The notes: generated by a model not told the origin, from the sequence alone. A DNA stretch of 60,987 nt from an uncultured Bacilli bacterium (GCA_934162325.1 CAKPIH010000002.1:1-60987); one strand, 5' to 3'. Shown: positions 2,679 through 53,778, counted from the stretch's first letter. Numbers and translations: made by a program.

Positions 2679-2870
2679 TCCACTTCAAACTTAAATAAAT
2701 TTAAGTTTTCCGTGGTGTTAGTGAGCCAAAAATATTTGTCTCTCTAACAAACAATATTTAAGTATATATCCATTGCTTCTATATAATAGATATGGTTGAT
2801 ATACTACTTATAGGCAATACAAATATTGGCTATAAGTAGCACTGTAAGACTACATAAGACTTACAGTGAT
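2679..2870 (+). repeat. hairpin-repeat family, composite copy (degenerate left arm plus right arm)
   Basis: Left arm has hairpins AAACTTAAA/TTTAAGTTT and GTTAGTGAG-CCAAA..-CTCTCTAAC. Right arm has the box GTATATATCCATTGCTTCTATATAATAGATATGGTTGATA, then hairpins CTACTTATAGGC..GGCTATAAGTAG and CACTGTAAGAC..GACTTACAGTG. Confidence 0.7.
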
Positions 2871-6700: not shown

Positions 6701-6730
6701 TTCACACTTCGTTGTTCACTGTTGTTGCTT
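6701..6730 (+). repeat. hairpin-repeat family, truncated left-arm box
   Basis: TTCACACTTCGTTGTTCACT is identical to the box at 36963-36982. The element is cut short by the 3' end of the convergent gene. Confidence 0.6.
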
Positions 6731-6735
6731 ATAGA

Positions 6736-7374
6736 TTAATGTTTAACACATTTACCAATTATCACTGGGCACTTATCGGGAAAAAAATCAAAATATTCAA
6801 ATTTAATGTTATAATTCGCAAAATTAGAGGTTTTAAACTTTAAGTAATTAATCCAATTTTTATAGTTATCAAATACTTTACCATCTTTTGAATTATGAAT
6901 GCATGGACATAAATATAAGATAAAATCTTTCTTATATTTATAACAATTATCAATAATATTTTCAGTAATATAACATGGTCTAATACCGATAATTAAATCA
7001 TATTTTGATAAATCATAAGGTTTATTTAAATCATATTCAATGGTGTTAATGCCTCTATAATTTTTGATTAATATTTTATTATTAATGGCATCAATATTAA
7101 TACCATTGTTTTTATATATTGCTGATAAAATAGGAATATAGCCACAAGCGACTTCTAATAAATTCATATTATCAATATCAAAATAAGCATTAACAACATT
7201 ATAAAAATCGAAATATACAGTTTTTTTAATGTCTATTAAATTTAAGTAACAATATATTTGATCTATATCACAGGTGTATCCGTAATTGCACTTTGATAAT
7301 CTATTGTTATGAAAATAATCTTCATAAAAAGTTTTATTTTTATATATAAAATTAATGACTTTTTTATTTGACAT
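6736..7374 (-). CDS. hypothetical Rossmann/methyltransferase-fold-like protein (UPF0146-like?)
   Basis: 212 aa. LLEVACGYIPILS resembles SAM-MTase motif I and DLIIGIRPC resembles the UPF0146 signature. Cys-rich. Divergent from the peptide/ThiF operon. Confidence 0.3.
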   Translation of the reverse strand: MSNKKVINFIYKNKTFYEDYFHNNRLSKCNYGYTCDIDQIYCYLNLIDIKKTVYFDFYNVVNAYFDIDNMNLLEVACGYIPILSAIYKNNGINIDAINNKILIKNYRGINTIEYDLNKPYDLSKYDLIIGIRPCYITENIIDNCYKYKKDFILYLCPCIHNSKDGKVFDNYKNWINYLKFKTSNFANYNIKFEYFDFFPDKCPVIIGKCVKH

Positions 7375-7533
7375 TTATAATCACCTAAAAATATTATAAT
7401 TTTATTTTGCATTAATTTCAATAATTATAATAAAAAAATTAAATTTATATAGAATTCCCCAATATACATTTAAAATCAAAACTAAAGATTAAGTTCCGTA
7501 AGCAACAAAAAAAGCATAAAAAACATAAAACAA

Positions 7534-7562
7534 TTGACATTTTGAGGTAAATTTGATATAGT
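7534..7562 (+). promoter_or_regulatory. sigma-A type promoter of the small-ORF/ThiF-like/ABC-F operon
   Basis: TTGACA (7534-7539), 17-nt spacer, TATAGT (7557-7562). Confidence 0.65.
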
Positions 7563-7613
7563 ATGCTCAGAAAGCTTGTAAATAATGGCTTTCTAAGAAA
7601 GTGAGGATTAACA

Positions 7614-7679
7614 ATGAAATTTACTATTAGAAAAATTAATGATAATAAGTTTGAATGTCATGTTGATCAAAACTGCTAG
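7614..7679 (+). CDS. 21-aa peptide MKFTIRKINDNKFECHVDQNC, candidate precursor (or leader) peptide
   Basis: Below the ORF-track size cut-off. SD GTGAGGA lies 6 nt upstream of the ATG. It sits between a consensus promoter and a stem-loop, directly upstream of the E1-like gene. Confidence 0.5.
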   Translation: MKFTIRKINDNKFECHVDQNC

Positions 7680-7701
7680 TTATATTCTAAATTATAACTG
7701 A

Positions 7702-7730
7702 TTACAAAAGGCTTTTTAAGCCTTTTGTAA
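7702..7730 (+). promoter_or_regulatory. 13-bp perfect stem-loop between the small ORF and the ThiF-like gene
   Basis: TTACAAAAGGCTT-ttt-AAGCCTTTTGTAA with no downstream U-tract. Candidate attenuator or mRNA-stabilising structure. Confidence 0.6.
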
Positions 7731-7750
7731 AATTATAGGAGGATAAATGT

Positions 7751-8779
7751 ATGTTAATAATAAATCCACTAAAACCATTTTACAAAAATACTGAAGAAAA
7801 AATAATTAGAATGGGCAACTTTAAAGACACAGGAAAAGAAATTAATTATGAAGACGATAGTTTGATTAAATTGTTTGAAATTATAAGAAAACCAACTTCA
7901 AGAGAAAAAATAGTAGAAATCTTACAAGAAAATGACAAATTATCTTTAGAAGAAATAAATGAGGCACTGGATTATTTAATAAAAGAAAAATTTATAATAA
8001 AATATGAAGATTATAACAAAATAATTAATAGTGGAAAGTTTAATAGACAAAGTTTATTTTTTTCAATGGTAAGTGATGATTTAAAAGAATGGAGAGTTAA
8101 TAATGAAGTAAATATTTTAATATTAGGGATAGGTGGAGTAGGAGCTAATGTAGCTGTATTACTATCAAGAGCTGGATTCTCAAAACTTACATTAGTTGAT
8201 TATGATAAAGTAGAAGAGTCAAATCTTATCCGTCAAATTCCATATTCTATTAATGACATAGGAAAAAGTAAAACAGAAGCCATTGCTGAAAAGATTGACA
8301 GTAAAGAAATAAGTACTATCAATAAAGAAATATTAAAAGAATCGGATATAGAAAGTGAAATTGCTAATACCAGCTTTGTAATATGTACTTTAGATAAACC
8401 ATCTAGAGTTATCAGAAGAACTATTAATAAACTATGTGTTAAATACAACAAGCCTGTAATCTTTTCTGGTTTTGCCGAACATGTTGCAATGATAGGCCCC
8501 TTTATTATTCCTTCAAAAACGGCATGTTTAAAATGCATAGAAAGAGAAAGTAATAATGAACCATTGAATAATGTTACTATTACACCATCATATGGACCAC
8601 TATGTTTAATTATAGCCAGCATAGTATCAAATGAAGTAATTAACTATTTCTTTAAGTTTAAAAGTAGTAATTTAATAAATAAAACAATGATGTTTAATAT
8701 TTTATCTTATGAAACAAATATAATAAATTGGCAAAAGAAAAAAGATTGTGAGGTGTGTGGTAAAAATGATAGTAAATAA
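7751..8779 (+). CDS. E1-like ThiF/HesA/MoeB-family adenylyltransferase with N-terminal winged-helix (RRE/peptide-clamp-like) extension; MccB/PaaA-like
   Basis: SD AGGAGGA. Motifs FNRQSLFF, ILGIGGVGANVAVLLSRAGF and LVDYDKVEESNLIRQ. Two CxxC pairs (CLKC, CEVC). About 95-aa N-terminal extension (EKIVEILQENDKLSLEEINEALDYLIKEKFII). Confidence 0.75.
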   Translation: MLIINPLKPFYKNTEEKIIRMGNFKDTGKEINYEDDSLIKLFEIIRKPTSREKIVEILQENDKLSLEEINEALDYLIKEKFIIKYEDYNKIINSGKFNRQSLFFSMVSDDLKEWRVNNEVNILILGIGGVGANVAVLLSRAGFSKLTLVDYDKVEESNLIRQIPYSINDIGKSKTEAIAEKIDSKEISTINKEILKESDIESEIANTSFVICTLDKPSRVIRRTINKLCVKYNKPVIFSGFAEHVAMIGPFIIPSKTACLKCIERESNNEPLNNVTITPSYGPLCLIIASIVSNEVINYFFKFKSSNLINKTMMFNILSYETNIINWQKKKDCEVCGKNDSK

Positions 8780-10376
8780 TTTAAAAAAACAATTAAATGG
8801 TAAAGAGATACTCCAGGATATTTCATTTACACTATCGGATAAAGACAAAGTGGGTCTCGTGGGTGTAAACGGTTCAGGTAAATCAACACTCTTAAAAATT
8901 TTATCTGGAGAATTAGAAAAAGATTCCGGCACTATAAAATTAAATGAAGAAATTATTGGTTATTTAAAACAAGAAATTCCATATATATTTAATGATTTAT
9001 CCGTAATTGAATACCTAAAAAAAGAAACTAATATAGAAATATTGGAAAAAAAACTTCATGCATTAGAAGAAAATTTAACTGAAGAAAATATGGAGGAATA
9101 TGGTATTATACAAAGTCAATTTTTAGCAATTGATGGGTATATGTTTGAAGAAAACCTTACTAATATTTTACTAGGATTACACTTTAATAAATCATTAAGT
9201 TGTAAAATAGGTACTTTATCAGGAGGAGAGAAAATAAAAATTTTATTAGCGGCACTAATTCTAAAAAATAATGATATTATTTTACTTGATGAACCAACAA
9301 ATAACTTAGATATCGAAGCAATAGAATGGCTTGAAAATCATTTAAAACAATCAAGCAAAAAAATGATAATCATTTCACATGATGAAGTGTTTTTAAATAA
9401 TGTTGTAAACAAAATATTTGAACTAAAGGATGGTAAAATTAAAGAATACAATCTATCATATAAAGAATATCTAAAACAAAAAGAATATGAATATAATAGA
9501 GAAAAAGAGGAATATATAAAAGCTCAAGAAGAAAAAGAAAAATTAAAAAAGCAAGTACAAAAAGCAAAAGAGTGGGCAAGCAAAGGGACAAGTAAGAAAA
9601 ATAGAAGTGATAATGACAAGTTATCAAATAATTTTGCTATAGAAAGAACAAATACAAAAAATATATCAAAATTAACTAGAACTCTACAAAATTTAGAAAT
9701 TCCGGAGTTTGAAGAAAAGATACCTATAAAAGTATTTTTTACCTTTGATAATTCTAAAGGAAATAAAGATATAATTTTAGAAAATTTAATATGTGGCTAT
9801 CCAGATTTTAAAACACCAGAAATAAACCTAATTATTCCATTTGGAACAAGGGTTAGAATAACCGGCGGTAATGGTTCCGGAAAAACAACAGTAATAAAAA
9901 CAATTTTACACGAAATACAACCATTATCTGGAAACATAAAAATAGGAAATGATGTAAAAATTGGTTATATTTCTCAAAATACATTAAGTGCAAATACTGA
10001 AGAAAGTATTTATACTTATTTAACAAAAAACAATCCCAACATAGATAAATCACAAGTATTTATATTATTAGATAAATTTAATATTAGTTATGACGAAAAA
10101 GACAAGCCATATTCAATTCTATCTCCTGGAGAAAGAACAAGAATAAATCTAGTTAAATTGGCTTTAGAAAAAATAAATGTATTAATATTAGATGAGGTAA
10201 CAAACCATCTTGATAAAGAGGCACTAGATTTAATATACGAGTTAGTTGAAGGCTATGAAGGAACAATAATAAGTATTTCACATAACAGAAGATATAATGA
10301 ATATTTAGACGCTGATATTGAAGTAGATATAACAAATGGAAATATAAAACACAAAAGTTTAATTCGCCATAGATAA
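8766..10376 (+). CDS. ABC-F family ATPase (two ABC domains, no membrane domain)
   Basis: Walker A GVNGSGKS and GGNGSGKT. Signatures LSGGEK and LSPGER. Walker B ILLDEPTNNLD and LILDEVTNHLD. K/E-rich interdomain linker. ATG 8766 overlaps the ThiF-like stop by 14 nt (the ORF-track start 8748 is a GTG inside the SD). Confidence 0.85.
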   Translation: MIVNNLKKQLNGKEILQDISFTLSDKDKVGLVGVNGSGKSTLLKILSGELEKDSGTIKLNEEIIGYLKQEIPYIFNDLSVIEYLKKETNIEILEKKLHALEENLTEENMEEYGIIQSQFLAIDGYMFEENLTNILLGLHFNKSLSCKIGTLSGGEKIKILLAALILKNNDIILLDEPTNNLDIEAIEWLENHLKQSSKKMIIISHDEVFLNNVVNKIFELKDGKIKEYNLSYKEYLKQKEYEYNREKEEYIKAQEEKEKLKKQVQKAKEWASKGTSKKNRSDNDKLSNNFAIERTNTKNISKLTRTLQNLEIPEFEEKIPIKVFFTFDNSKGNKDIILENLICGYPDFKTPEINLIIPFGTRVRITGGNGSGKTTVIKTILHEIQPLSGNIKIGNDVKIGYISQNTLSANTEESIYTYLTKNNPNIDKSQVFILLDKFNISYDEKDKPYSILSPGERTRINLVKLALEKINVLILDEVTNHLDKEALDLIYELVEGYEGTIISISHNRRYNEYLDADIEVDITNGNIKHKSLIRHR

Positions 10377-10430: not shown

Positions 10431-10538
10431 ATTATATTTTAATAGTCACTTATATTTGTTACTATCATTAAATTATAAATAATCAGCAGTTTTAAAAAAA
10501 ATTAATAATATACCCATATACTTGTCAAGAAGTTCAAA

Positions 10539-10650
10539 GTATATATCCCTAACTACTCTACTCTATAATAAATACGGCTGGTATCCTATTTAAAGACAAT
10601 AAAAAAATATTGGCTTTAAATAGCACTTTAAGACCCAAGACTTAAAGTGA
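10539..10650 (+). repeat. hairpin-repeat family, right-arm copy
   Basis: GTATATATCCC..CTATAATAAATACGGCTGGTAT box, then hairpins CTATTTAAAGAC..GGCTTTAAATAG and CACTTTAAGAC..GACTTAAAGTG. Confidence 0.7.
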
Positions 10651-14152: not shown

Positions 14153-14710
14153 ATGGATTATAGTATTTTAGTAAATAAAGATAATCCCCTGCCAAGAGCA
14201 TATATACCAAATACATTAGAAAATGCTCATAGTGAATATAAAGAAAACATATTACTAGATAATAAAGCCCTAGAAGCATTTCAAGAACTAAAAAGAGAAG
14301 CCTTAAGATATGGATATCATATCGATATAGTAAGTGGCTATCGAGATTATGATTATCAAGAAAAAATATACAATAAATTACTAGAAGAAAAAGGTTTTAC
14401 CTATGCCATAACAAGAATAGCATCTCCTGGTAAGAGTGAACATCAAACAGGATTAGCCTTAGATTTTTGTATATATAAAGATGGAAAATGTTATATAGAA
14501 CATGATGTTGAAGATAAAATAGAAACTAAATGGATACATCAAAATAGTCATAGATATGGTTTTATCATAAGATATCCTGAAGGAAAAGAAGATATAACAA
14601 AGTATAGTTATGAACCATGGCATTTAAGATATGTAGGAAATATAGCTAGTAATATTTATAACAATAACCTAACGCTAGAAGAATATAAAGATAAAGAGTC
14701 TATTAAATAG
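14153..14710 (+). CDS. M15B D-alanyl-D-alanine carboxypeptidase (VanY-like)
   Basis: SGYRDYDYQ, SEHQTGLALD and EPWHLRYVG zinc-ligand motifs. Confidence 0.8.
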   Translation: MDYSILVNKDNPLPRAYIPNTLENAHSEYKENILLDNKALEAFQELKREALRYGYHIDIVSGYRDYDYQEKIYNKLLEEKGFTYAITRIASPGKSEHQTGLALDFCIYKDGKCYIEHDVEDKIETKWIHQNSHRYGFIIRYPEGKEDITKYSYEPWHLRYVGNIASNIYNNNLTLEEYKDKESIK

Positions 14711-14718
14711 ATTCTTTT

Positions 14719-14930
14719 TCAGTACCGTCTCACACTATGTTGTTCGCCGTTTTCTAATGCCTAAGGTCATTAGAAAAAAAGTTTTGAGCCTGTCATCTCA
14801 AAACTAAAATTATTTCTTCTTAGAATGATCACAGTACATAATAATTAACTTATATATAATAAATATGGTTGATATCTTGTTGTTAGACCCAGACTAACAA
14901 CAACACTGCAAGACCCTAGGCTTGCAGTGA
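14719..14930 (+). repeat. hairpin-repeat family, full composite copy (left arm plus right arm)
   Basis: Left arm: CTCACACTATGTTGTTCG box, hairpins TTCTAATG-CCTAAGGT-CATTAGAA and TTTTGAGCC..TCTCAAAA. Right arm: TATATATAATAAATATGGTTGATA box, hairpins TTGTTGTTAGAC..GACTAACAACAA and CACTGCAAGACCCTAGGCTTGCAGTG. Confidence 0.75.
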
Positions 14931-14950
14931 TAAAAAATAATATAAACATA

Positions 14951-15007
14951 TTGACATCTTATAGTAATAGTGATATTATTTAAATATATGAATATATATT
15001 CATATAT
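14951..15007 (+). promoter_or_regulatory. cad promoter with ArsR/SmtB-type palindromic operator
   Basis: TTGACA (14951-14956), 17 nt, TATTAT (14974-14979). A perfect 24-bp palindrome ATATATGAATAT|ATATTCATATAT (14984-15007) contains the TGAA..TTCA core of 12-2-12 operators. Confidence 0.7.
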
Positions 15008-17512: not shown

Positions 17513-18061
17513 ATGAATACAGTAATAGCCATAATTTTTATATCGGTAATAGGAACACTTTTACATTTCATGTATGAATGGTCAGGACATAATAAAGTAG
17601 TATCCCTTTTTGCCGCAGTTAATGAAAGTACTTGGGAACATATCAAAATAGCCTTAACTCCAACCTTTATATGGACACTATATGATGGAGCAGTATATGG
17701 CCTTAATCCCAATTACTTTGAAGCCAAAGCCTTAAGTATATTAGTAATAATAGTGCTAATACCATTACTATTTTATGCCTATCAATTAATAACCAAAAAA
17801 GCCATATTACCAATAGATATCACAATATTCTATTTAACTATTATTATAAGTAATCTAGTATTTAACTATGTAATAAATATGGAAGCATTACATTTCTTCT
17901 ATGCATACATATCAGTAATAGTATTATTTATAATATTCGGTTCCTATATGGTATTAACATTATTACCAATAAAAAACTTCTTATTCAAAGACCCAATAAC
18001 CAAAAGATATGGAATAAGAGGACATTCCCATCATGAACACAAAGAACATAAAGAAAAATAA
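17513..18061 (+). CDS. polytopic membrane protein (DUF6512-like) with His-rich C-terminus
   Basis: 182 aa with LHFMYEWSGHN and VNESTWEHIKIAL motifs and about 5 TM helices. Tail is RGHSHHEHKEHKEK. Confidence 0.45.
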   Translation: MNTVIAIIFISVIGTLLHFMYEWSGHNKVVSLFAAVNESTWEHIKIALTPTFIWTLYDGAVYGLNPNYFEAKALSILVIIVLIPLLFYAYQLITKKAILPIDITIFYLTIIISNLVFNYVINMEALHFFYAYISVIVLFIIFGSYMVLTLLPIKNFLFKDPITKRYGIRGHSHHEHKEHKEK

Positions 18062-18101
18062 TCAAAATATGTTTTAATAACATATTTTTTTTGATATAAT
18101 A
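18054..18101 (+). repeat. 48-bp direct repeat, copy 1 (terminator plus -10 box)
   Basis: AAAAATAATCAAAATATGTTTTAATAACATATTTTTTTTGATATAATA. Matches 19003-19050 with one mismatch. Confidence 0.85.
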
Positions 18102-18119
18102 GAGAAAAGGAGGAGTATT

Positions 18120-18494
18120 ATGAATTGTTGTTTTTGTGATGATTTTATTCCAAATAAAAAACCCATTTACGAAAATGAACTAGCAGCAGCATATTTTGAT
18201 GAATTTCCAGTAAATAAAGGTCATACATTAATAATTACTAAAAGACATACCGAAACTTTTTTTAGTACAACAAACGAAGAAAAAGAAAAAATGCTCGAGC
18301 TATTAGATAAGTGCAAAAATTATATAGATGAAAAGTATCATCCAACAGGATACAATATAGGATTAAATTGTGGTGAGGATGCAGGACAAAGTGTTATGCA
18401 TGTTCATATGCATTTAATCCCAAGATACAAAGGCGATGTTGAAAACCCAAGAGGTGGAGTAAGAGGAATAATACCAAATAGAAAGGAATATTAA
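18120..18494 (+). CDS. HIT-family nucleotide hydrolase/transferase
   Basis: 124 aa with the histidine triad HVHMHLIP. N-terminal CCFC and NKGHTLII motifs. Confidence 0.85.
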   Translation: MNCCFCDDFIPNKKPIYENELAAAYFDEFPVNKGHTLIITKRHTETFFSTTNEEKEKMLELLDKCKNYIDEKYHPTGYNIGLNCGEDAGQSVMHVHMHLIPRYKGDVENPRGGVRGIIPNRKEY

Positions 18495-18498
18495 AAAA

Positions 18499-19026
18499 AT
18501 GAATATAAGAAATGCAGTTAGAGTATTTGCTTTTAAAGAAGATAAAGTTGCATGTATAAAATACAAAAATACTACTAAAGATTATTATGATATACCAGGT
18601 GGAAAAATAGAAACTGGAGAGACAGAAGTACAAACCTGTATAAGAGAATTCAAAGAAGAAACAGGAATGAATGTAGATAATTTAGACTATATAGGAGTAA
18701 TAAAAACAATTTACCCAGATAAAAATAAGGTTTTTAATTTAAAGGTGTATATTGGAAACAATGTAATTGGTAGTCCTAAAGAACTAGAGGAGAATTATTC
18801 TTATTGGATGCCTATTTCTGAACTAATAGAAAAAGACAAAAGATTTGCTATAACTCATTTATTAGATAAAGATTTAATAAAGTACTTTGATACAAAAGGA
18901 TTTGATATTACATTTATATGTGATGAAAATCATAATATAATAAATGTAAGTGTAAATGAGCCAGGAGAAAAAGAATTAAAAAATAAATACAGTTTAACAA
19001 GAAAAAATAATCAAAATATGTTTTAA
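18499..19026 (+). CDS. NUDIX hydrolase
   Basis: Nudix box GGKIETGETEVQTCIREFKEETG. The last 7 codons are encoded by repeat copy 2. Confidence 0.75.
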   Translation: MNIRNAVRVFAFKEDKVACIKYKNTTKDYYDIPGGKIETGETEVQTCIREFKEETGMNVDNLDYIGVIKTIYPDKNKVFNLKVYIGNNVIGSPKELEENYSYWMPISELIEKDKRFAITHLLDKDLIKYFDTKGFDITFICDENHNIINVSVNEPGEKELKNKYSLTRKNNQNMF

Positions 19027-19050
19027 TAACATATTTTTTTTGGTATAATA
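19003..19050 (+). repeat. 48-bp direct repeat, copy 2 (terminator plus -10 box)
   Basis: Identical to 18054-18101 except A/G at one position. Contains the hairpin AAAATATGTT/AACATATTTT plus T-tract, then TATAAT. Confidence 0.85.
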
Positions 19051-36958: not shown

Positions 36959-36962
36959 AGAG

Positions 36963-37037
36963 TTCACACTTCGTTGTTCACTACTATAGAAAGCCTAAGG
37001 TCTTTCTATAGTAATTTAAAGCCAAAGTCTTTAAATT
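36963..37037 (+). repeat. hairpin-repeat family, left-arm copy
   Basis: TTCACACTTCGTTGTTCACT box, then hairpins CTATAGAAAGCCTAAGGTCTTTCTATAG and AATTTAAAGCCAAAGTCTTTAAATT. Confidence 0.75.
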
Positions 37038-37049
37038 AAGTTTTATCAT

Positions 37050-39207: not shown

Positions 39208-40278
39208 ATGAAAGAAAAAGTTGATATTGAAGCATCTACAAATACCTTTTTAAAAAGTTTTTTTGATGCTACCTATAATGAAAATAAATTATTATTTGAT
39301 AATATGTCAAATATTTATAAATTAATATTCTTTCTATACTACAATATGGATAGTTTAGATGTAGAAAGATTAGATTTAAGAGATGGTACTCGTGCTGATT
39401 ATATGGCAAAGTCAAAATTAATTGATGCTTTTTATAAAGATATAGGAATAGACTTTAGAATGGAAGAAATAACAAGTAGCGGAGTACTTAACATAATAAG
39501 TACTAATAATCCTAAAAAAGCAACTTTTAAAGAAATATACACTGGTAATAATAATTATTTTATTCATGAAGAAGCTTATATCAATATTAGAACACAAGAG
39601 AGAGTAGTAGTAGAAACTACTTATCATAAAGTAATAAATGTTTATAATAATGATTTAGTAACTGATTCAATAATATGGGTTCATGAAATATCTCATTACC
39701 GAAATCAACCATCTATAAAAAGAGGAGAAGTAAATGATATTTTGACTGAACTACTTGCCTTTACTGAAGAACTAATTTATGCTGATTATTTAGAAGGTAT
39801 TGGCTATCAAGAAGCTGTAAATACATTTAAAATATCAGAGTATAATAATTTTTATAGCGTTATAAATCAAGGCTTCCATATCGTAAGAATAACTTTACTT
39901 TACTATTTACTTGGAAAAGTATCTGAAGAAAATTATAAATTATTATATCATGATGATAACTATCAAACATCATTAGAAGTATTTGATAAAGAAAGAATAA
40001 ATAATCAAAATATTATGTTTATAATATTATACTACTCAGTAGCTATTTTCTCACTATATAATTATATAGAATATAAAAAAGATTCCAACTTCTTAAAACA
40101 AATAGAAGAATTAAATGAATCATTATTAAATAATAGACATTCACTAGAAGATTCACTAAAAATAATAGATATAAAATTAAATAAAGAATCTTTAGTCACT
40201 TTGCTAGAAGATATCAATATATTTAAAGATACCTTACTAAGTAACAATAAAACTAAAACATTAAAACCAAATAACTAA
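39208..40278 (+). CDS. HExxH metallopeptidase, M3/PepF-like core
   Basis: 356 aa with WVHEISHY plus the downstream ILTELLAFTEE (third-ligand Glu context as in M3B). 8-nt gap from paralog 2. Confidence 0.45.
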   Translation: MKEKVDIEASTNTFLKSFFDATYNENKLLFDNMSNIYKLIFFLYYNMDSLDVERLDLRDGTRADYMAKSKLIDAFYKDIGIDFRMEEITSSGVLNIISTNNPKKATFKEIYTGNNNYFIHEEAYINIRTQERVVVETTYHKVINVYNNDLVTDSIIWVHEISHYRNQPSIKRGEVNDILTELLAFTEELIYADYLEGIGYQEAVNTFKISEYNNFYSVINQGFHIVRITLLYYLLGKVSEENYKLLYHDDNYQTSLEVFDKERINNQNIMFIILYYSVAIFSLYNYIEYKKDSNFLKQIEELNESLLNNRHSLEDSLKIIDIKLNKESLVTLLEDINIFKDTLLSNNKTKTLKPNN

Positions 40279-40329
40279 ATTAGAGACTACAGGCTCTAAT
40301 TTACCACGTAAGACTACAGGCTGAAGTGG
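40278..40329 (+). repeat. hairpin-repeat family, two right-arm-type hairpins
   Basis: AAATTAGAGACTACAGGCTCTAATTT and CCACGTAAGACTACAGGCTGAAGTGG carry the AGAC-N-GGCT cap. Confidence 0.55.
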
Positions 40330-40339
40330 CATAAAAAAT

Positions 40340-42707: not shown

Positions 42708-42785
42708 CCTCTCACACTATGTTGTTCGAGGTTTTGAAAGCCTAAGGTCTTTCAAAAAAAATTTCAGAGCCAAATATCTCTGAAA
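42708..42785 (+). repeat. hairpin-repeat family, left-arm copy (near-identical to 48078-48155)
   Basis: CCTCTCACACTATGTTGTTCGAGG box, then hairpins TTGAAAGCCTAAGGTCTTTCAA and TTTCAGAGCCAAATATCTCTGAAA. Confidence 0.8.
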
Positions 42786-42811
42786 TAAAAGTATATATAA
42801 TATAAAAAATA

Positions 42812-48077: not shown

Positions 48078-48155
48078 CCTCTCACACTGTCGTTGTTCGA
48101 GGTTTTGAAAGCCTAAGGTCTTTCAAAAAAATTTCAGAGCCAAATGTCTCTGAAA
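48078..48155 (+). repeat. hairpin-repeat family, left-arm copy (near-identical to 42708-42785)
   Basis: Differs from the 42.7-kb copy by 2 substitutions and 2 single-nt indels. A degenerate right-arm-like tail runs to about 48215. Confidence 0.8.
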
Positions 48156-48303
48156 TAAAAGTATTTATATAAGCTATAGATTTATGTCTATAGTTTTTCT
48201 TATATCCACATATATTGTTGATAAACGAAATTACTAAAAAATAATGACAAGAGTAAAAGTAAGTGCTATAATAAACATTAAAACAATTGAAGGGAGCACT
48301 TAC

Positions 48304-49032
48304 ATGAATAAAAAAGAAGAATATCAAGAAATATATATAAATTTAGATGATTCAGGTAAATTAACAAAAAAAGAAAAGGTATCAGTATATGCAGGAATAG
48401 TCTTTTTATCAAAACAAGAAAAAGATAAATTTATAACTCAGTATCGCAAAATAATAAATGAGATAAAATGTTCTTACTGTGACCAAACAAAAGGAGAATG
48501 TACTAAAAAATGTAAAGAAATAAAAAATACTAATATCAAGAAAGGCCATAAAAGAAGGATTATGAACTACATAAGTAAATATTATACTATTGCCCTAGTA
48601 ATAAATAATACAAAAGTATATGATCATATTATAAATAATAAAGCCTCAAAAGGAAGATATATAGATTATACAATAAGAAGACTAATAAAAAGTACAATAG
48701 AAGAATTAATAAAAAATAAAAAAATAGACCCACATAAAAATGTAAGGCTAATAATAAATATAGATGAGCAATCTACTAAAAGTAATGGTTATTATAATTT
48801 AAAAGATGGTCTAACTGAAGAATTACTACATGGAATATCTAATTTTAATTATGATATAACATATAAAAATATATTATATGGAAAATTAGAAATAAGATTA
48901 ACATACCAAGACTCAGGTAAGAGTTATTTAGTGCAGGCAGCAGATTTAATAGCAGGTACTACTAGAGGAAGAGCATTATCAGATATTAATACCAATATTG
49001 ATATTATCGATCATAAACTATTATTCCCATAA
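48304..49032 (+). CDS. DUF3800-like protein
   Basis: Start at MNKKEEYQEIYINLDDSGK behind AAGGGAG. N-terminal IYIxxDDSG and C-terminal VQAADLIAG are the two motifs I associate with DUF3800. Confidence 0.5.
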   Translation: MNKKEEYQEIYINLDDSGKLTKKEKVSVYAGIVFLSKQEKDKFITQYRKIINEIKCSYCDQTKGECTKKCKEIKNTNIKKGHKRRIMNYISKYYTIALVINNTKVYDHIINNKASKGRYIDYTIRRLIKSTIEELIKNKKIDPHKNVRLIINIDEQSTKSNGYYNLKDGLTEELLHGISNFNYDITYKNILYGKLEIRLTYQDSGKSYLVQAADLIAGTTRGRALSDINTNIDIIDHKLLFP

Positions 49033-49242
49033 AAAGAAAAGAGACTATCTAGTAGTCTCTCCCCAACTCAAGCGGTGTACTTAACATACACTTAATTTAA
49101 TAAAATCGACATTGAGCTATCGACCTGACGAGATTTCTCTCCGGTAATACAATAATACTATAACTATCATAAAAAGTCAAGTATATTGCACTATTATTAT
49201 ACTCAAAATAACAAAAAATATACCAATAATAAACTACTTTAA

Positions 49243-49341
49243 GTATATATTTTGTGCTTATATATAATAAGTATGGTTGATACTTATTTGGAGACCAACT
49301 AGGCTCCAAATAACACTAGCAAGACAAATGGCTTGCAGTGC
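49243..49341 (+). repeat. hairpin-repeat family, right-arm copy
   Basis: GTATATATTTTGTGCTTATATATAATAAGTATGGTTGATA box, then hairpins TTATTTGGAGAC..GGCTCCAAATAA and CACTAGCAAGAC..GGCTTGCAGTG. Confidence 0.7.
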
Positions 49342-53460: not shown

Positions 53461-53565
53461 TTCACTCTAAGCCTTACAATGTAAGTCTTATGAGTGTTGT
53501 TATTAGCCTAGGGTCTAATAACAATATGCCATTGCATCTATTATATATAAGCAATAGGTATATAC
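53461..53565 (-). repeat. hairpin-repeat family, right-arm copy in inverted orientation
   Basis: The reverse complement reads GTATATACCTATTGCTTATATATAATAGATGCAATGGCATA.., then hairpins TTGTTATTAGACCCTAGGCTAATAACAA and CACTCATAAGAC..GGCTTAGAGTG. Confidence 0.7.
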
Positions 53566-53778
53566 TAAGATATTATTTTAGCATAAAGAAGTAACTATTA
53601 ATTAAATAGCACTGATGATGATATGGATAAATAAAAATACAATTGTTGCGTTTAAGTATAATGTAATAATAGAAATTAATTTTATGTATGAAAATAGGAA
53701 TTCAGTTAGAAATTATTATGGAAGGAATGTAAAAAAATAGTTTTTGGTGATATAATATTTCATCAAAGGAGAGGTATT

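What the first reader, a model, noticed from the sequence alone, without database searches (positions are those of the whole stretch)
14719..14930. Dispersed family of intergenic hairpin repeats with covarying stems and conserved AGAC..GGCT caps (at least 11 copies in 61 kb)
Copies are at 2679-2870, 6701-6730, 10539-10650, 14719-14930, 36963-37037, 40278-40329, 42708-42785, 48078-48155, 49243-49341 and 53461-53565 (inverted).

The full element has two arms:
- Left arm: the box (C/T)TCACACT..GTTGTTC, then two hairpins capped AGCC-N-GTCT.
- Right arm: the box GTATATATCC..TATATAATAnATATGGTTGATA, then two hairpins capped AGAC-N-GGCT and ending CAGTGA.
- The arms are inverted relative to each other (TCACACT versus AGTG(T)GA ends), like a MITE or PATE.
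- Solo arms are common.

Stem sequences differ between copies but stay complementary. Examples are CTACTTATAG, CTATTTAAAG, TTGTTGTTAG, TTATTTGGAG and TTGTTATTAG. The cap keeps the same A/G-opposite-G mismatch just below the loop. That pattern argues for selection on structure and for recognition of the cap, not recent copying.

The hairpins are not followed by U-tracts. They usually sit just after genuine terminators and upstream of the next promoter. No cognate transposase (Y1/RAYT or other) is in the window.
Basis: seen in the sequence. Interest (0 to 1): 0.65.

Follow-up and report, generated by a model that had tools for sequence, protein, structure and literature searches.

The report
Capped double-hairpin intergenic repeat family
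A common, uncultured human-gut bacterium carries about 100 copies of a small intergenic DNA repeat made of paired hairpins whose shape is kept by selection while the sequence drifts; it resembles the REP/BIME and MITE repeats of other bacteria, belongs to no described family, and often sits at the edges of spots where strains swap accessory genes.

Summary
All ten listed copies are recovered by profile and covariance-model searches.

**The unit.** It is a "capped double hairpin". A 9-bp stem abuts an 8-bp stem with no gap. Each stem is closed by G-C, an A·G (sometimes A·A) mismatch, then C-G. The unit is joined to one of three head boxes.
- The genome (1.14 Mb) holds 163 such hairpins. A reversed-genome control gives 4.
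- 97.9% of cells pair, and all 21 pairs show compensatory changes.
- At orthologous sites the stems diverge 1.0%, against 3.6% for flanks and 6.5% for loops.

**Distribution.** The family occurs in one genus only (1 of 86 genera sampled in the order). Copy number ranges from 0 to about 100 per genome. Rfam has no match.

**No mobiliser found.** A Y1/HUH transposase is present in only 8 of 30 genus genomes and does not track copy number. The local IS605 ends are not family members. Among strains I saw deletions but no new insertions.

**Orientation.** Hairpins just after stop codons face one way, and those before genes face the other.

**Cassette edges.** Left and right arms bracket strain-variable accessory cassettes.

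**Best reading.** This is a new REP/BIME- or MITE-like repeat, now kept as a folded structure at gene boundaries and read by an unknown protein. RNA evidence could not be obtained.

The parts
14719..14813 (+). L arm of the focal full element. L box: conserved loop TCACACTATGTTGTTC at 14730-14745, with a short closing stem. Two hairpins in 'L-type' orientation (cap AGCC..GTCT): hpL1 at 14750-14777 and hpL2 at 14780-14805. The arm starts 19 nt after the stop codon of the VanY-like gene (14153-14710).
   Evidence: nhmmer L profile, E=1.7e-14. R2 hit 14748-14809(-), 33.4 bits. Census hairpin 14750-14777. Fold.
14832..14930 (+). R arm of the focal element. R box: AT-rich, with a TATAAT hexamer at 14855-14860. 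hp0: ATAT-GGTTG-ATAT at 14863-14875. hp1: 14877-14903, 9-bp stem, cap AGAC..GACT. hp2: 14904-14929, 8-bp stem CACTGCAAG.., cap AGAC..GGCT. The arm ends AGTGA.
   Evidence: nhmmer, E=1.3e-21. R1, 100.6 bits. R2, 70.9 bits. Census.
14875..14932 (+). A 58-nt segment (hp1 + hp2) that is present or absent among near-identical strains and species. It is flanked by the 5-nt direct repeat TGATA.
   Evidence: Absent in G138, G129 and G122 and in strains L185-L187. Present in the window's own genome, L190 and G137, and in the outgroups G133, G130, G121 and G136.
2758..2870 (+). R arm. It is preceded at 2679-2752 by a degenerate L-type hairpin, GTGTTAGTGAGCC..GTCTCTCTAACA.
   Evidence: nhmmer, E=1.8e-16. 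R1, 105.4 bits. R2, 46.7 bits.
6701..6730 (+). Solo L box (TTCACACTTCGTTGTTCACT), 19 nt after the stop codon of the amidase gene. It is the left edge of strain-variable islet A.
   Evidence: Regex and nhmmer, E=0.0034. In other strains the same site carries a full L arm.
10534..10650 (+). R arm, 85 nt upstream of the UvrD-type helicase gene. It is the right edge of islet A and is present in all 10 strains examined.
   Evidence: nhmmer, E=1.6e-17. R2, 58.2 bits. R2 hits at 3432-3500 in L202-L211.
36962..37045 (+). L arm, 34 nt after the uvrA stop codon. In strain L223 a 428-codon gene is inserted exactly at its inner edge.
   Evidence: nhmmer, E=7.6e-17. R2, 55.8 bits. Junction comparison.
40273..40332 (+). 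Solo double hairpin with no head box, in a convergent intergenic region.
   Evidence: R2, 46.6 bits. Census.
42708..42794 (+). L arm. The closing stem of its L box is CCTC/GAGG.
   Evidence: nhmmer, E=7.1e-20. R2, 36.7 bits.
48078..48165 (+). L arm, 12 nt after a stop codon. With the R arm at 49238-49341 it brackets a DUF3800 gene and its DUF3800-I RNA.
   Evidence: nhmmer, E=7.8e-19. R2, 45 bits. Rfam RF02969 at 49028-49152(-). Pfam DUF3800.
49238..49341 (+). R arm. Its hp0 carries a compensated stem, GTAT/ATAC.
   Evidence: nhmmer, E=1.4e-13. R1, 95.6 bits.
53461..53570 (-). R arm in the inverted orientation, 40 nt after a stop codon. Its hp0 is ATGC-AAT-GCAT. It lies at the edge of the 53.4-60.7-kb accessory (defence-like) block.
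   Evidence: nhmmer, E=2.9e-12. R1, 89.4 bits. R2, 55 bits.

Best explanation
**What it is.** A lineage-specific, non-autonomous, modular palindromic repeat of the REP/BIME-MITE kind.

**Unit.** Two abutting hairpins, hp1 (9 bp) and hp2 (8 bp). Each carries the same asymmetric cap: G-C, an A·R mismatch, then C-G, then a free distal stem and loop.

**Assembly.** Units are joined to one of three head boxes and build 'L' and 'R' arms that face each other. The outer ends, GTTCAC...GTGAAC, point towards the flanking genes.
- R box, which includes the small hairpin hp0.
- A second 'type ii' box.
- L box.

**Shown.**
- The family multiplied inside one genus of uncultured gut Bacilli.
- Copies are then inherited at fixed sites.
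- Stems are under purifying and compensatory selection, while loops drift.
- Orientation depends on position relative to genes.
- Only deletions, not insertions, distinguish strains.

**Inferred.**
- The element now works as a folded hairpin module at gene boundaries.
- A still unidentified protein reads it strand-specifically. The fixed stem lengths and the conserved purine-purine mismatch are the signature of such a reader.
- In the orientation found just after stop codons, it would sit in the 3' untranslated region and protect or define mRNA 3' ends, as REPs do.
- In the opposite orientation it lies just upstream of promoters.
- Because the arms are repeated at many intergenic sites, they also serve as portable homology at which strains exchange accessory cassettes.
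For: **Copy number and controls.**
- 163 capped hairpins against 4 in the control. Stems are 9 bp (101 hairpins) or 8 bp (43).
- There are 40 double units, mostly 9+8 with a 0-nt gap.

**Covariation.**

**In-situ constraint.**
- Stem divergence is 7/732. Flanks are 80/2233 (p=7.6e-5) and cap plus loop 24/367.
- Orthologous compensatory changes are seen: hpL2 GTTTTGAG/CTCAAAAC becomes GTTTAGAG/CTCTAAAC, and hp0 ATAT/ATAT becomes ATAC/GTAT.

**True DNA palindromy.**
- G·U pairs are 8 of 1400 cells.
- G·T and A·C mismatches are equally rare, 3 against 4.

**Distribution.** One genus of 73 (R arm model R1) or 86 (unit model R2) sampled in the order. Copy number is 0-101 per genome.

**Stability.** Between genomes 92.7% identical, there is one deletion among 28 comparable units.

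**Polarity.**
- 0-60 nt after a stop codon: 46 L-type against 20 R-type (p=0.002).
- 20-150 nt before a start codon: 72 R-type against 27 L-type (p=7e-6).
- The type ii head box is co-oriented with the downstream gene in 17 of 17 cases.

**Cassette edges.**
Against: - No RNA data could be obtained. Whether the hairpins act in RNA or in DNA is therefore open.
- No partner protein has been identified.
- The hairpins lack U-tracts, and canonical terminators often precede them. They are therefore not needed for termination.
- The near-absence of G·U pairs argues against a purely RNA-level constraint.
- The gene-related polarity follows automatically if the arms are simply the outward-facing ends of an element that fills the intergenic space.
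- Some genus members have no copies, so the element is dispensable.
Confidence: 0.5

Rival explanations
1. An active or recently active single-strand DNA transposon remnant, of the PATE/REPIN type. In this reading hp1 and hp2 are the left-end and right-end hairpins recognised on one strand by a Y1 HUH transposase (IS200/IS605 TnpA or a RAYT) supplied in trans. The double hairpin inserts 3' of the TTGAT in the R box.
For: - Both hairpins of a unit have the same polarity and an asymmetric mismatch, as TnpA and RAYT substrates do.
- TTGAT lies immediately 5' of hp1 in R arms.
- The 58-nt unit is present or absent cleanly among strains.
- A Y1 pseudogene and TnpB genes exist in the genome.
- Copy number varies from 0 to about 100 within the genus.
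Against: - Y1_Tnp is found in only 8 of 30 genus genomes. It is absent from G121, G130, G133, G134 and G138 (64-101 R-arm-model hits each). It is intact in G141 and G145, which have 1-3 such hits.
- The ends of the local IS605/IS200 elements do not score with the unit model.
- The one polymorphism is a deletion between TGATA repeats: outgroups carry the filled state with the same stems.
- L and R arms are inverted, unlike IS200/IS605 ends.
Confidence: 0.17
2. A promoter plus structured-leader (or small-RNA) cassette. In this reading the invariant TATAAT of the R box and of the type ii box is a real -10 element. Transcripts would start about 7 nt downstream and carry the double hairpin at their 5' end, as a stabiliser or protein-binding handle.
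For: - The TATAAT core is invariant or nearly invariant across 111 R arms.
- Two unrelated head boxes share ATATAATA, followed 13-16 nt later by hp1.
- All 17 type ii copies point at the downstream gene, 111-313 nt upstream of its start (15 of 17 within 111-168 nt).
- R-type hairpins are enriched before start codons.
Against: - About 11 of 26 type i R arms point into the 3' end of a convergent gene.
- There is no recognisable -35 and no TG extension.
- Canonical promoters lie downstream of the element.
- hp0 would be cut by the predicted start site.
- No terminator follows.
- G·U pairs are almost absent.
- Rfam has no match.
Confidence: 0.13
3. Dispersed, attC-like recombination sites. In this reading the folded arms, especially the L box and its hairpins, are crossover sites at which circular accessory-gene cassettes are integrated and excised by a structure-specific recombinase.
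For: - Three of three arm-bearing intergenic regions examined at strain level hold alternative cargo. About 3 of about 35 arm-free regions do.
- Islet A alleles: HNH, Dam MTase, DnaJ, DpnII R-M, none, or ThiF + ABC-F.
- Islet B alleles: none, SpaA lipoprotein, HTH + Zn-ribbon, or a membrane protein.
- The third site is after uvrA.
- Cargo junctions fall 0-12 nt from the last L-arm hairpin in four independent events.
- The Dam cassette is flanked by an approximately 85-nt direct repeat (terminator + L box + hpL1). The cargo-free allele is the recombinant, with the crossover inside the L box.
Against: - No recombinase has been identified.
- Ordinary homologous recombination between repeated arms explains every junction.
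- A genome-wide test linking indels to elements was not significant once intergenic length was controlled: 4/39 against 6/77.
- Hotspots without arms exist, for example the HIT/NUDIX cassette.
- The attC core motifs are absent.
Confidence: 0.12

Closest known systems
REP/BIME elements and REPINs of Enterobacteria and Pseudomonas (PMC3116915, PMC2817692, PMC3479197)
   Same: - Short extragenic imperfect palindromes at about 100 copies per genome.
- Arranged in alternating or inverted orientation around a spacer, as in BIMEs and REPINs.
- Vertically inherited and long-lived.
- An asymmetric hairpin that suggests strand-specific protein recognition.
- Located in 3' untranslated regions.
   Different: - No GTAG head motif.
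- The unit is two abutting hairpins with an internal A·R mismatch.
- Stem sequence is free and covaries.
- No RAYT in most carrier genomes.
- The host is a small-genome, 26% G+C gut Bacilli lineage.
PATEs, the miniature derivatives of IS200/IS605 elements
   Same: - Two hairpins of the same polarity make up most of the unit.
- There are no long terminal inverted repeats within the unit.
- TTGAT lies 5' of the unit. From my own knowledge, this is the ISDra2 target.
   Different: - The ends of the IS605 and IS200 copies in this genus are unrelated to the unit.
- The transposase does not co-occur with the repeats.
- Whole elements have inverted arms.
BOX elements of Streptococcus pneumoniae and Correia elements of Neisseria (comparison from my own knowledge; no sequences compared)
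   Same: - Modular build from boxes.
- Strong secondary structure.
- Intergenic position next to promoters and terminators.
- No linked transposase.
- Possible promoter content.
   Different: - Sequence is unrelated as far as recalled.
- This family shows fixed 9/8-bp double hairpins with a conserved mismatch and extensive stem covariation.
Integron attC sites
   Same: - Structure is conserved while sequence varies.
- Asymmetry within the hairpin marks one strand.
- They adjoin exchangeable gene cassettes.
   Different: - No RYYYAAC/GTTRRRY cores.
- No cassette arrays and no integrase.
- Sites are dispersed and occur as inverted L/R pairs.

Membership tests
REP/REPIN-RAYT system | High-copy short imperfect palindromes confined to extragenic DNA | tested here: met
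   163 hairpins in 1.14 Mb. Only 4 of 109 units lie inside crude ORFs.
REP/REPIN-RAYT system | Conserved GTAG-type tetranucleotide at the 5' foot of the hairpin | tested here: not met
   The feet of the stems vary freely. Conservation lies in the internal cap G-A-C..G-R-C.
REP/REPIN-RAYT system | A cognate single-copy RAYT (Y1 HUH, PF01797) that co-occurs with the repeats | tested here: not met
   PF01797 is found in 8 of 30 genus genomes and is absent from most high-copy genomes.
IS200/IS605-derived PATE | Ends homologous to those of an autonomous IS200/IS605 in the same lineage | tested here: not met
   LE and RE of the IS605/IS200 copies were read. R2 gives no hit at their ends.
IS200/IS605-derived PATE | Insertion 3' of a fixed tetra- or pentanucleotide, with no target duplication | tested here: inconclusive
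   TTGAT precedes hp1. The only polymorphism is a deletion between TGATA repeats. No fresh insertion was found.
DDE-type MITE | Terminal inverted repeats plus a target-site duplication, and a related autonomous IS | tested here: inconclusive
   The outer ends GTTCAC/GTGAAC are inverted. No duplication could be read because the empty sites are too diverged. DDE transposases were not searched for.
Any Rfam RNA family | A covariance-model match at or near the gathering score | tested here: not met
   The only window hit is DUF3800-I at 49028-49152. In the focal region, nothing scores above 22 bits against gathering scores of 38-70.
Intrinsic terminator | A G+C-rich hairpin directly followed by a U-tract on the transcribed strand | tested here: not met
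   A T-rich tail arises only from the 5' strand of the neighbouring hairpin, and in one orientation only. On the + strand of the focal copy no T-tract follows, apart from one weak scan hit at hpL2 (tail AAAATTATTT). Separate canonical terminators are often present.
Integron attC | R''/R' core sites (RYYYAAC...GTTRRRY) at the stem base, and cassette arrays next to intI | tested here: not met
   The stem bases are not conserved. Copies are dispersed. intI was not searched for.

The most novel reading that the evidence does not exclude
The arms are the sites of a dispersed, integron-like cassette system. A structure-specific recombinase of an unrecognised kind would read the capped hairpins and the L-box loop on one strand. 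It would insert or excise circular accessory and defence gene cassettes at many intergenic 'docks' in a reduced gut-bacterial genome.
Probability: 0.12. Interest if true: 0.85.

Novelty: new variant of a known kind. Interest (0 to 1): 0.55.

Why it matters
- **A tractable case of repeat domestication.** The host genus is very common in human guts: one neighbouring protein is indexed in 1610 blocks of the assembly collection. Its genome is small, about 1.2-1.5 Mb, yet roughly 1% of it goes to these repeats. A repeat whose stems are demonstrably under selection, with a fixed geometry and an asymmetric mismatch, predicts an unknown hairpin-reading protein.
- **Use in annotation.** Models R1 and R2 mark gene-block boundaries and the docks where strains differ, including restriction-modification, HNH, DUF3800 and a MccB-like operon. 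This helps strain typing and the search for defence islands in metagenome-assembled genomes.
- **If the arms are true recombination sites.** This would be a new route of cassette exchange.

Tried and rejected
- **RNA evidence.** No transcript data could be used.
- **Rfam.** Scans at the gathering and E-value thresholds matched nothing.
- **Viral origin.** Three IMG/VR contigs hold the 22-mer but have no unit-model hit. One, on inspection, looks like an unrelated AT-rich virus. These are chance matches.
- **Y1/TnpB as mobiliser.** Rejected on phyletic pattern and on the end sequences.
- **Low-copy genomes as home of a master element.** The G141 and G142 copies sit in ordinary 3'-UTR positions with no mobile genes nearby.
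- **Moving cargo.** The SpaA-type lipoprotein cassette has only 39-51% identical paralogues elsewhere. There is no sign that cargo and arms move together.
- **Link between large indels and element-bearing intergenic regions.** Genome-wide, 10% against 3.3% (p=0.07). The difference vanishes after controlling for length.
- **Self-templated palindrome correction as the cause of perfect stems.** Rejected. The mismatch persists, and orthologous differences are rare single changes with no doubles.
- **Short ORF starting at the ATG in ATATGG.** Not conserved (sequence inspection).
- **Look-ups that gave nothing.** Exact-protein look-ups for two other loci showed no strain variation. One failed because of a GTG start.
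- **Earlier notes.** No look-alike stretch is recorded in earlier scan notes.

Full report
**Setting.** The window is contig C2 of a 1.14-Mb assembly: 66 contigs, 91% complete, 26% G+C. Related loci come from uncultured human-gut Bacilli. Their records are named Firmicutes bacterium CAG:321, Clostridium sp. CAG:302, 'uncultured Tenericutes' UMGS1185/1739, and the closed genome CP091726.1.

**Observation.**
- Profile searches find about 40 R arms and about 15 L arms in the genome. Several lie at contig ends.
- A structural census finds 163 hairpins of the form stem-GAC-loop-GRC-stem. The reversed genome gives 4.
- Stems outside the closing G-C pair are almost always 9 bp (101 hairpins) or 8 bp (43).
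- The partner of the unpaired A is G in 143 hairpins and A in 20. Distal stem and loop vary from 3 to 14 nt.
- Hairpins pair up as 9-bp then 8-bp units with no nucleotide between them.
It scores the cap strand far above the opposite strand.

**Anatomy.** Three head boxes carry the unit.
- **R box.** (A)AGTATAT..N9..CTTATATATAATA, followed by ATAT-GGYTG-ATAT. RNAalifold and the pair counts show that this last motif is a 4-bp hairpin (hp0) with compensated variants ATAC/GTAT, GTAT/ATAC, ATGT/ACAT and ATGC/GCAT.
- **Type ii box.** GTTAGAAAGTACTTCACCCTAAATATAATATCTTATAATTAT. There are 17 copies, and all point at the downstream gene.
- **L box.** A conserved 16-nt loop, TCACACTNNGTTGTTC, closed by covarying stems CCTC/GAGG, AGT/ACT or CAGT/ACTG. 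It is followed by units in the reverse-complement ('L-type') orientation.

L and R arms face each other with outer ends GTTCAC...GTGAAC. The stems of an L arm are not complementary to those of its R arm. The element is therefore a chain of separate hairpins, not one long hairpin.

**Covariation and constraint.**
- In 111 R arms, 90.2% of cells pair, against 34-49% when partners are slid. There are 410 double-change cells against 124 in shuffles.
- In 67 units from five genomes, 97.9% pair and all 21 pairs show compensatory change. That alignment was fitted to the model.
- G·U pairs are very rare (8 of 1400 cells). Among imperfect stems, G·T and A·C are equally rare, 3 against 4. The constraint is therefore on true DNA palindromy, not on an RNA of one strand alone.
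- At 28 orthologous units, compared with genomes roughly 87-93% identical overall, stems differ at 1.0% of sites. Flanks differ at 3.6% and cap plus loop at 6.5% (p=7.6e-5 and 4.5e-7).
- All seven stem differences are single changes. This argues against self-templated palindrome correction and for purifying selection.
- Across deeper splits (about 80% identity), the same sites keep intact hairpins with compensated changes.

**Distribution and dynamics.**
- Both models hit one genus only: 1 of 73 genera sampled in the order for R1 and 1 of 86 for R2.
- Inside the genus, counts run from 0 to about 100 per genome. The family therefore multiplied in one clade.
- It is not visibly moving now. Over 348 kb aligned with a genome 92.7% identical, the only element-related indel is loss of the 58-nt double hairpin at 14875-14932, between TGATA repeats.
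- The same two alleles segregate among strains with identical neighbouring proteins. Outgroups carry the filled state with the same stems, so this is a deletion.
- A second small deletion joins the identical caps of hp1 and hp2.
- Some orthologous R arms carry quite different stems inside near-identical flanks. This fits gene conversion among copies.

**Mobiliser.**
- The genome has a Y1 transposase pseudogene and three TnpB genes, none in the window.
- Across the genus, PF01797 occurs in 8 of 30 genomes and does not track copy number.
- The ends of the IS605/IS200 copies are unrelated to the unit.
- Rfam has no match. Hits in viral contigs are chance.

**Position and polarity.**
- Units are intergenic. 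They are slightly depleted from divergent regions.
- Hairpins that start 0-60 nt after a stop codon are L-type on the mRNA strand in 46 of 66 cases.
- Hairpins that end 20-150 nt before a start codon are R-type in 72 of 99 cases.
- In both positions the hp2 or GTTCAC end faces the nearer gene.
- At the focal copy, a canonical terminator precedes the L arm (sequence inspection). A strong sigma-70-type promoter (14951-14979) follows the R arm.
- This polarity fits two readings. One is a transcript-level role. The other is simple geometry: the arms are the outward ends of an element that fills the intergenic space.

**Cassette edges.** Strain panels built from exact-protein look-ups show that arm-bearing intergenic regions are where gene content differs.
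- **Islet A.** It runs from the amidase gene and the L box at 6701 to the R arm at 10534-10650 and the UvrD gene. It holds HNH, Dam methylase, DnaJ, a DpnII restriction-modification system, nothing, or (in this window) the ThiF + ABC-F operon.
- **Islet B, the focal element.** It holds nothing (with or without the double hairpin), a SpaA-type lipoprotein, an HTH plus Zn-ribbon pair, or a small membrane protein.
- **After uvrA.** One strain has a 428-codon gene inserted exactly at the inner edge of the L arm.
- **Direct repeats.** The Dam cassette is flanked by an approximately 85-nt direct repeat of terminator + L box + hpL1. The cargo-free allele is the recombinant, with the crossover inside the L box.
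- **Elsewhere in the genome.** 2-kb cargo blocks lie between or beside arms, relative to G138: a VirD4-like ATPase set, and an AAA ATPase pair (both named from sequence motifs, not from a family search).
- **Against a special mechanism.** An arm-free hotspot exists, the HIT/NUDIX cassette. A genome-wide indel test was not significant after controlling for length. No recombinase is known. Ordinary homologous recombination between dispersed arms explains all the junctions.

**Verdict.**
- The best reading (about 0.5) is a new REP/BIME- or MITE-like family. It spread in one genus and is now kept as a folded, protein-read module at gene boundaries. A side effect is that it supplies portable homology for cassette exchange.
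- The rivals are HUH-mediated single-strand transposition (0.17), a promoter plus leader cassette (0.13), and attC-like site-specific recombination (0.12).
- Transcript maps, phyletic profiling for the partner protein, and population-scale junction mapping would decide between them.

Noticed in passing
Other contigs of the genome, e.g. C43:3774, C1:61514, C29:12828, C39:9348, C64:1869: A second head box, GTTAGAAAGTACTTCACCCTAAATATAATATCTTATAATTAT, is followed by the same double hairpin. There are 17 copies. All are co-oriented with a housekeeping gene (typA/bipA-, trmD-, lgt-, ftsW- and rsmE-like, guessed from N-terminal sequence, not checked) whose start lies 111-313 nt downstream. A canonical TTGACA-type promoter often lies in between.
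   Followed up: partly
window 49028-49152 (-): Rfam DUF3800-I RNA (65.6 bits) lies directly after a DUF3800 gene (48244-49032). The pair sits between an L arm and an R arm.
   Followed up: partly
window 6736-10376 and loci L202-L211: The MccB-like ThiF + ABC-F operon of this window is one of at least six alternative cargo sets at the same dock in other strains. The others are HNH, Dam MTase, DnaJ, DpnII R-M, and an empty dock with a 26-codon hydrophobic ORF.
   Followed up: partly
window 18054-19050; loci L222-L231: The HIT + NUDIX pair, bracketed by 48-bp direct repeats, is present in some strains and absent in most others. It is a cassette hotspot without capped hairpins.
   Followed up: partly
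L207:3285-3375 and L204:1640-1730: Another repeated intergenic module, ACACTCAATT.T.ACTATT.AATGTTTCCT.TTTTTATTTTAT..TTACATACTAATAA, and a shared promoter segment, GGTGTTCGCTTGTTTTTAA.AT.TAAAAAATGTTATAAT, recur next to different cargo genes.
   Followed up: no
Genome contigs C13:10082-11278, C4:39488-39838, C12:19410-20118: There is one intact IS1341-type TnpB (398 aa), with conserved left and right ends shared with a truncated copy. There is also a decayed IS605 (TnpA with stop codons plus a TnpB fragment). The right end of the IS605 type (TTCTAAT..TTAGAA hairpin, then GTGTGA.GTTCAC) loosely resembles the reverse complement of the focal L arm.
   Followed up: partly
Genome contig C12:56-83: A 28-nt indel relative to G138 lies inside tandem AACGGAC..GTCTTTG-type repeats. 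This is a different small repeat.
   Followed up: no
L205:432-1013: In one strain, a NUMOD4/HNH_3 homing-endonuclease-like gene splits the amidase gene region upstream of islet A.
   Followed up: no
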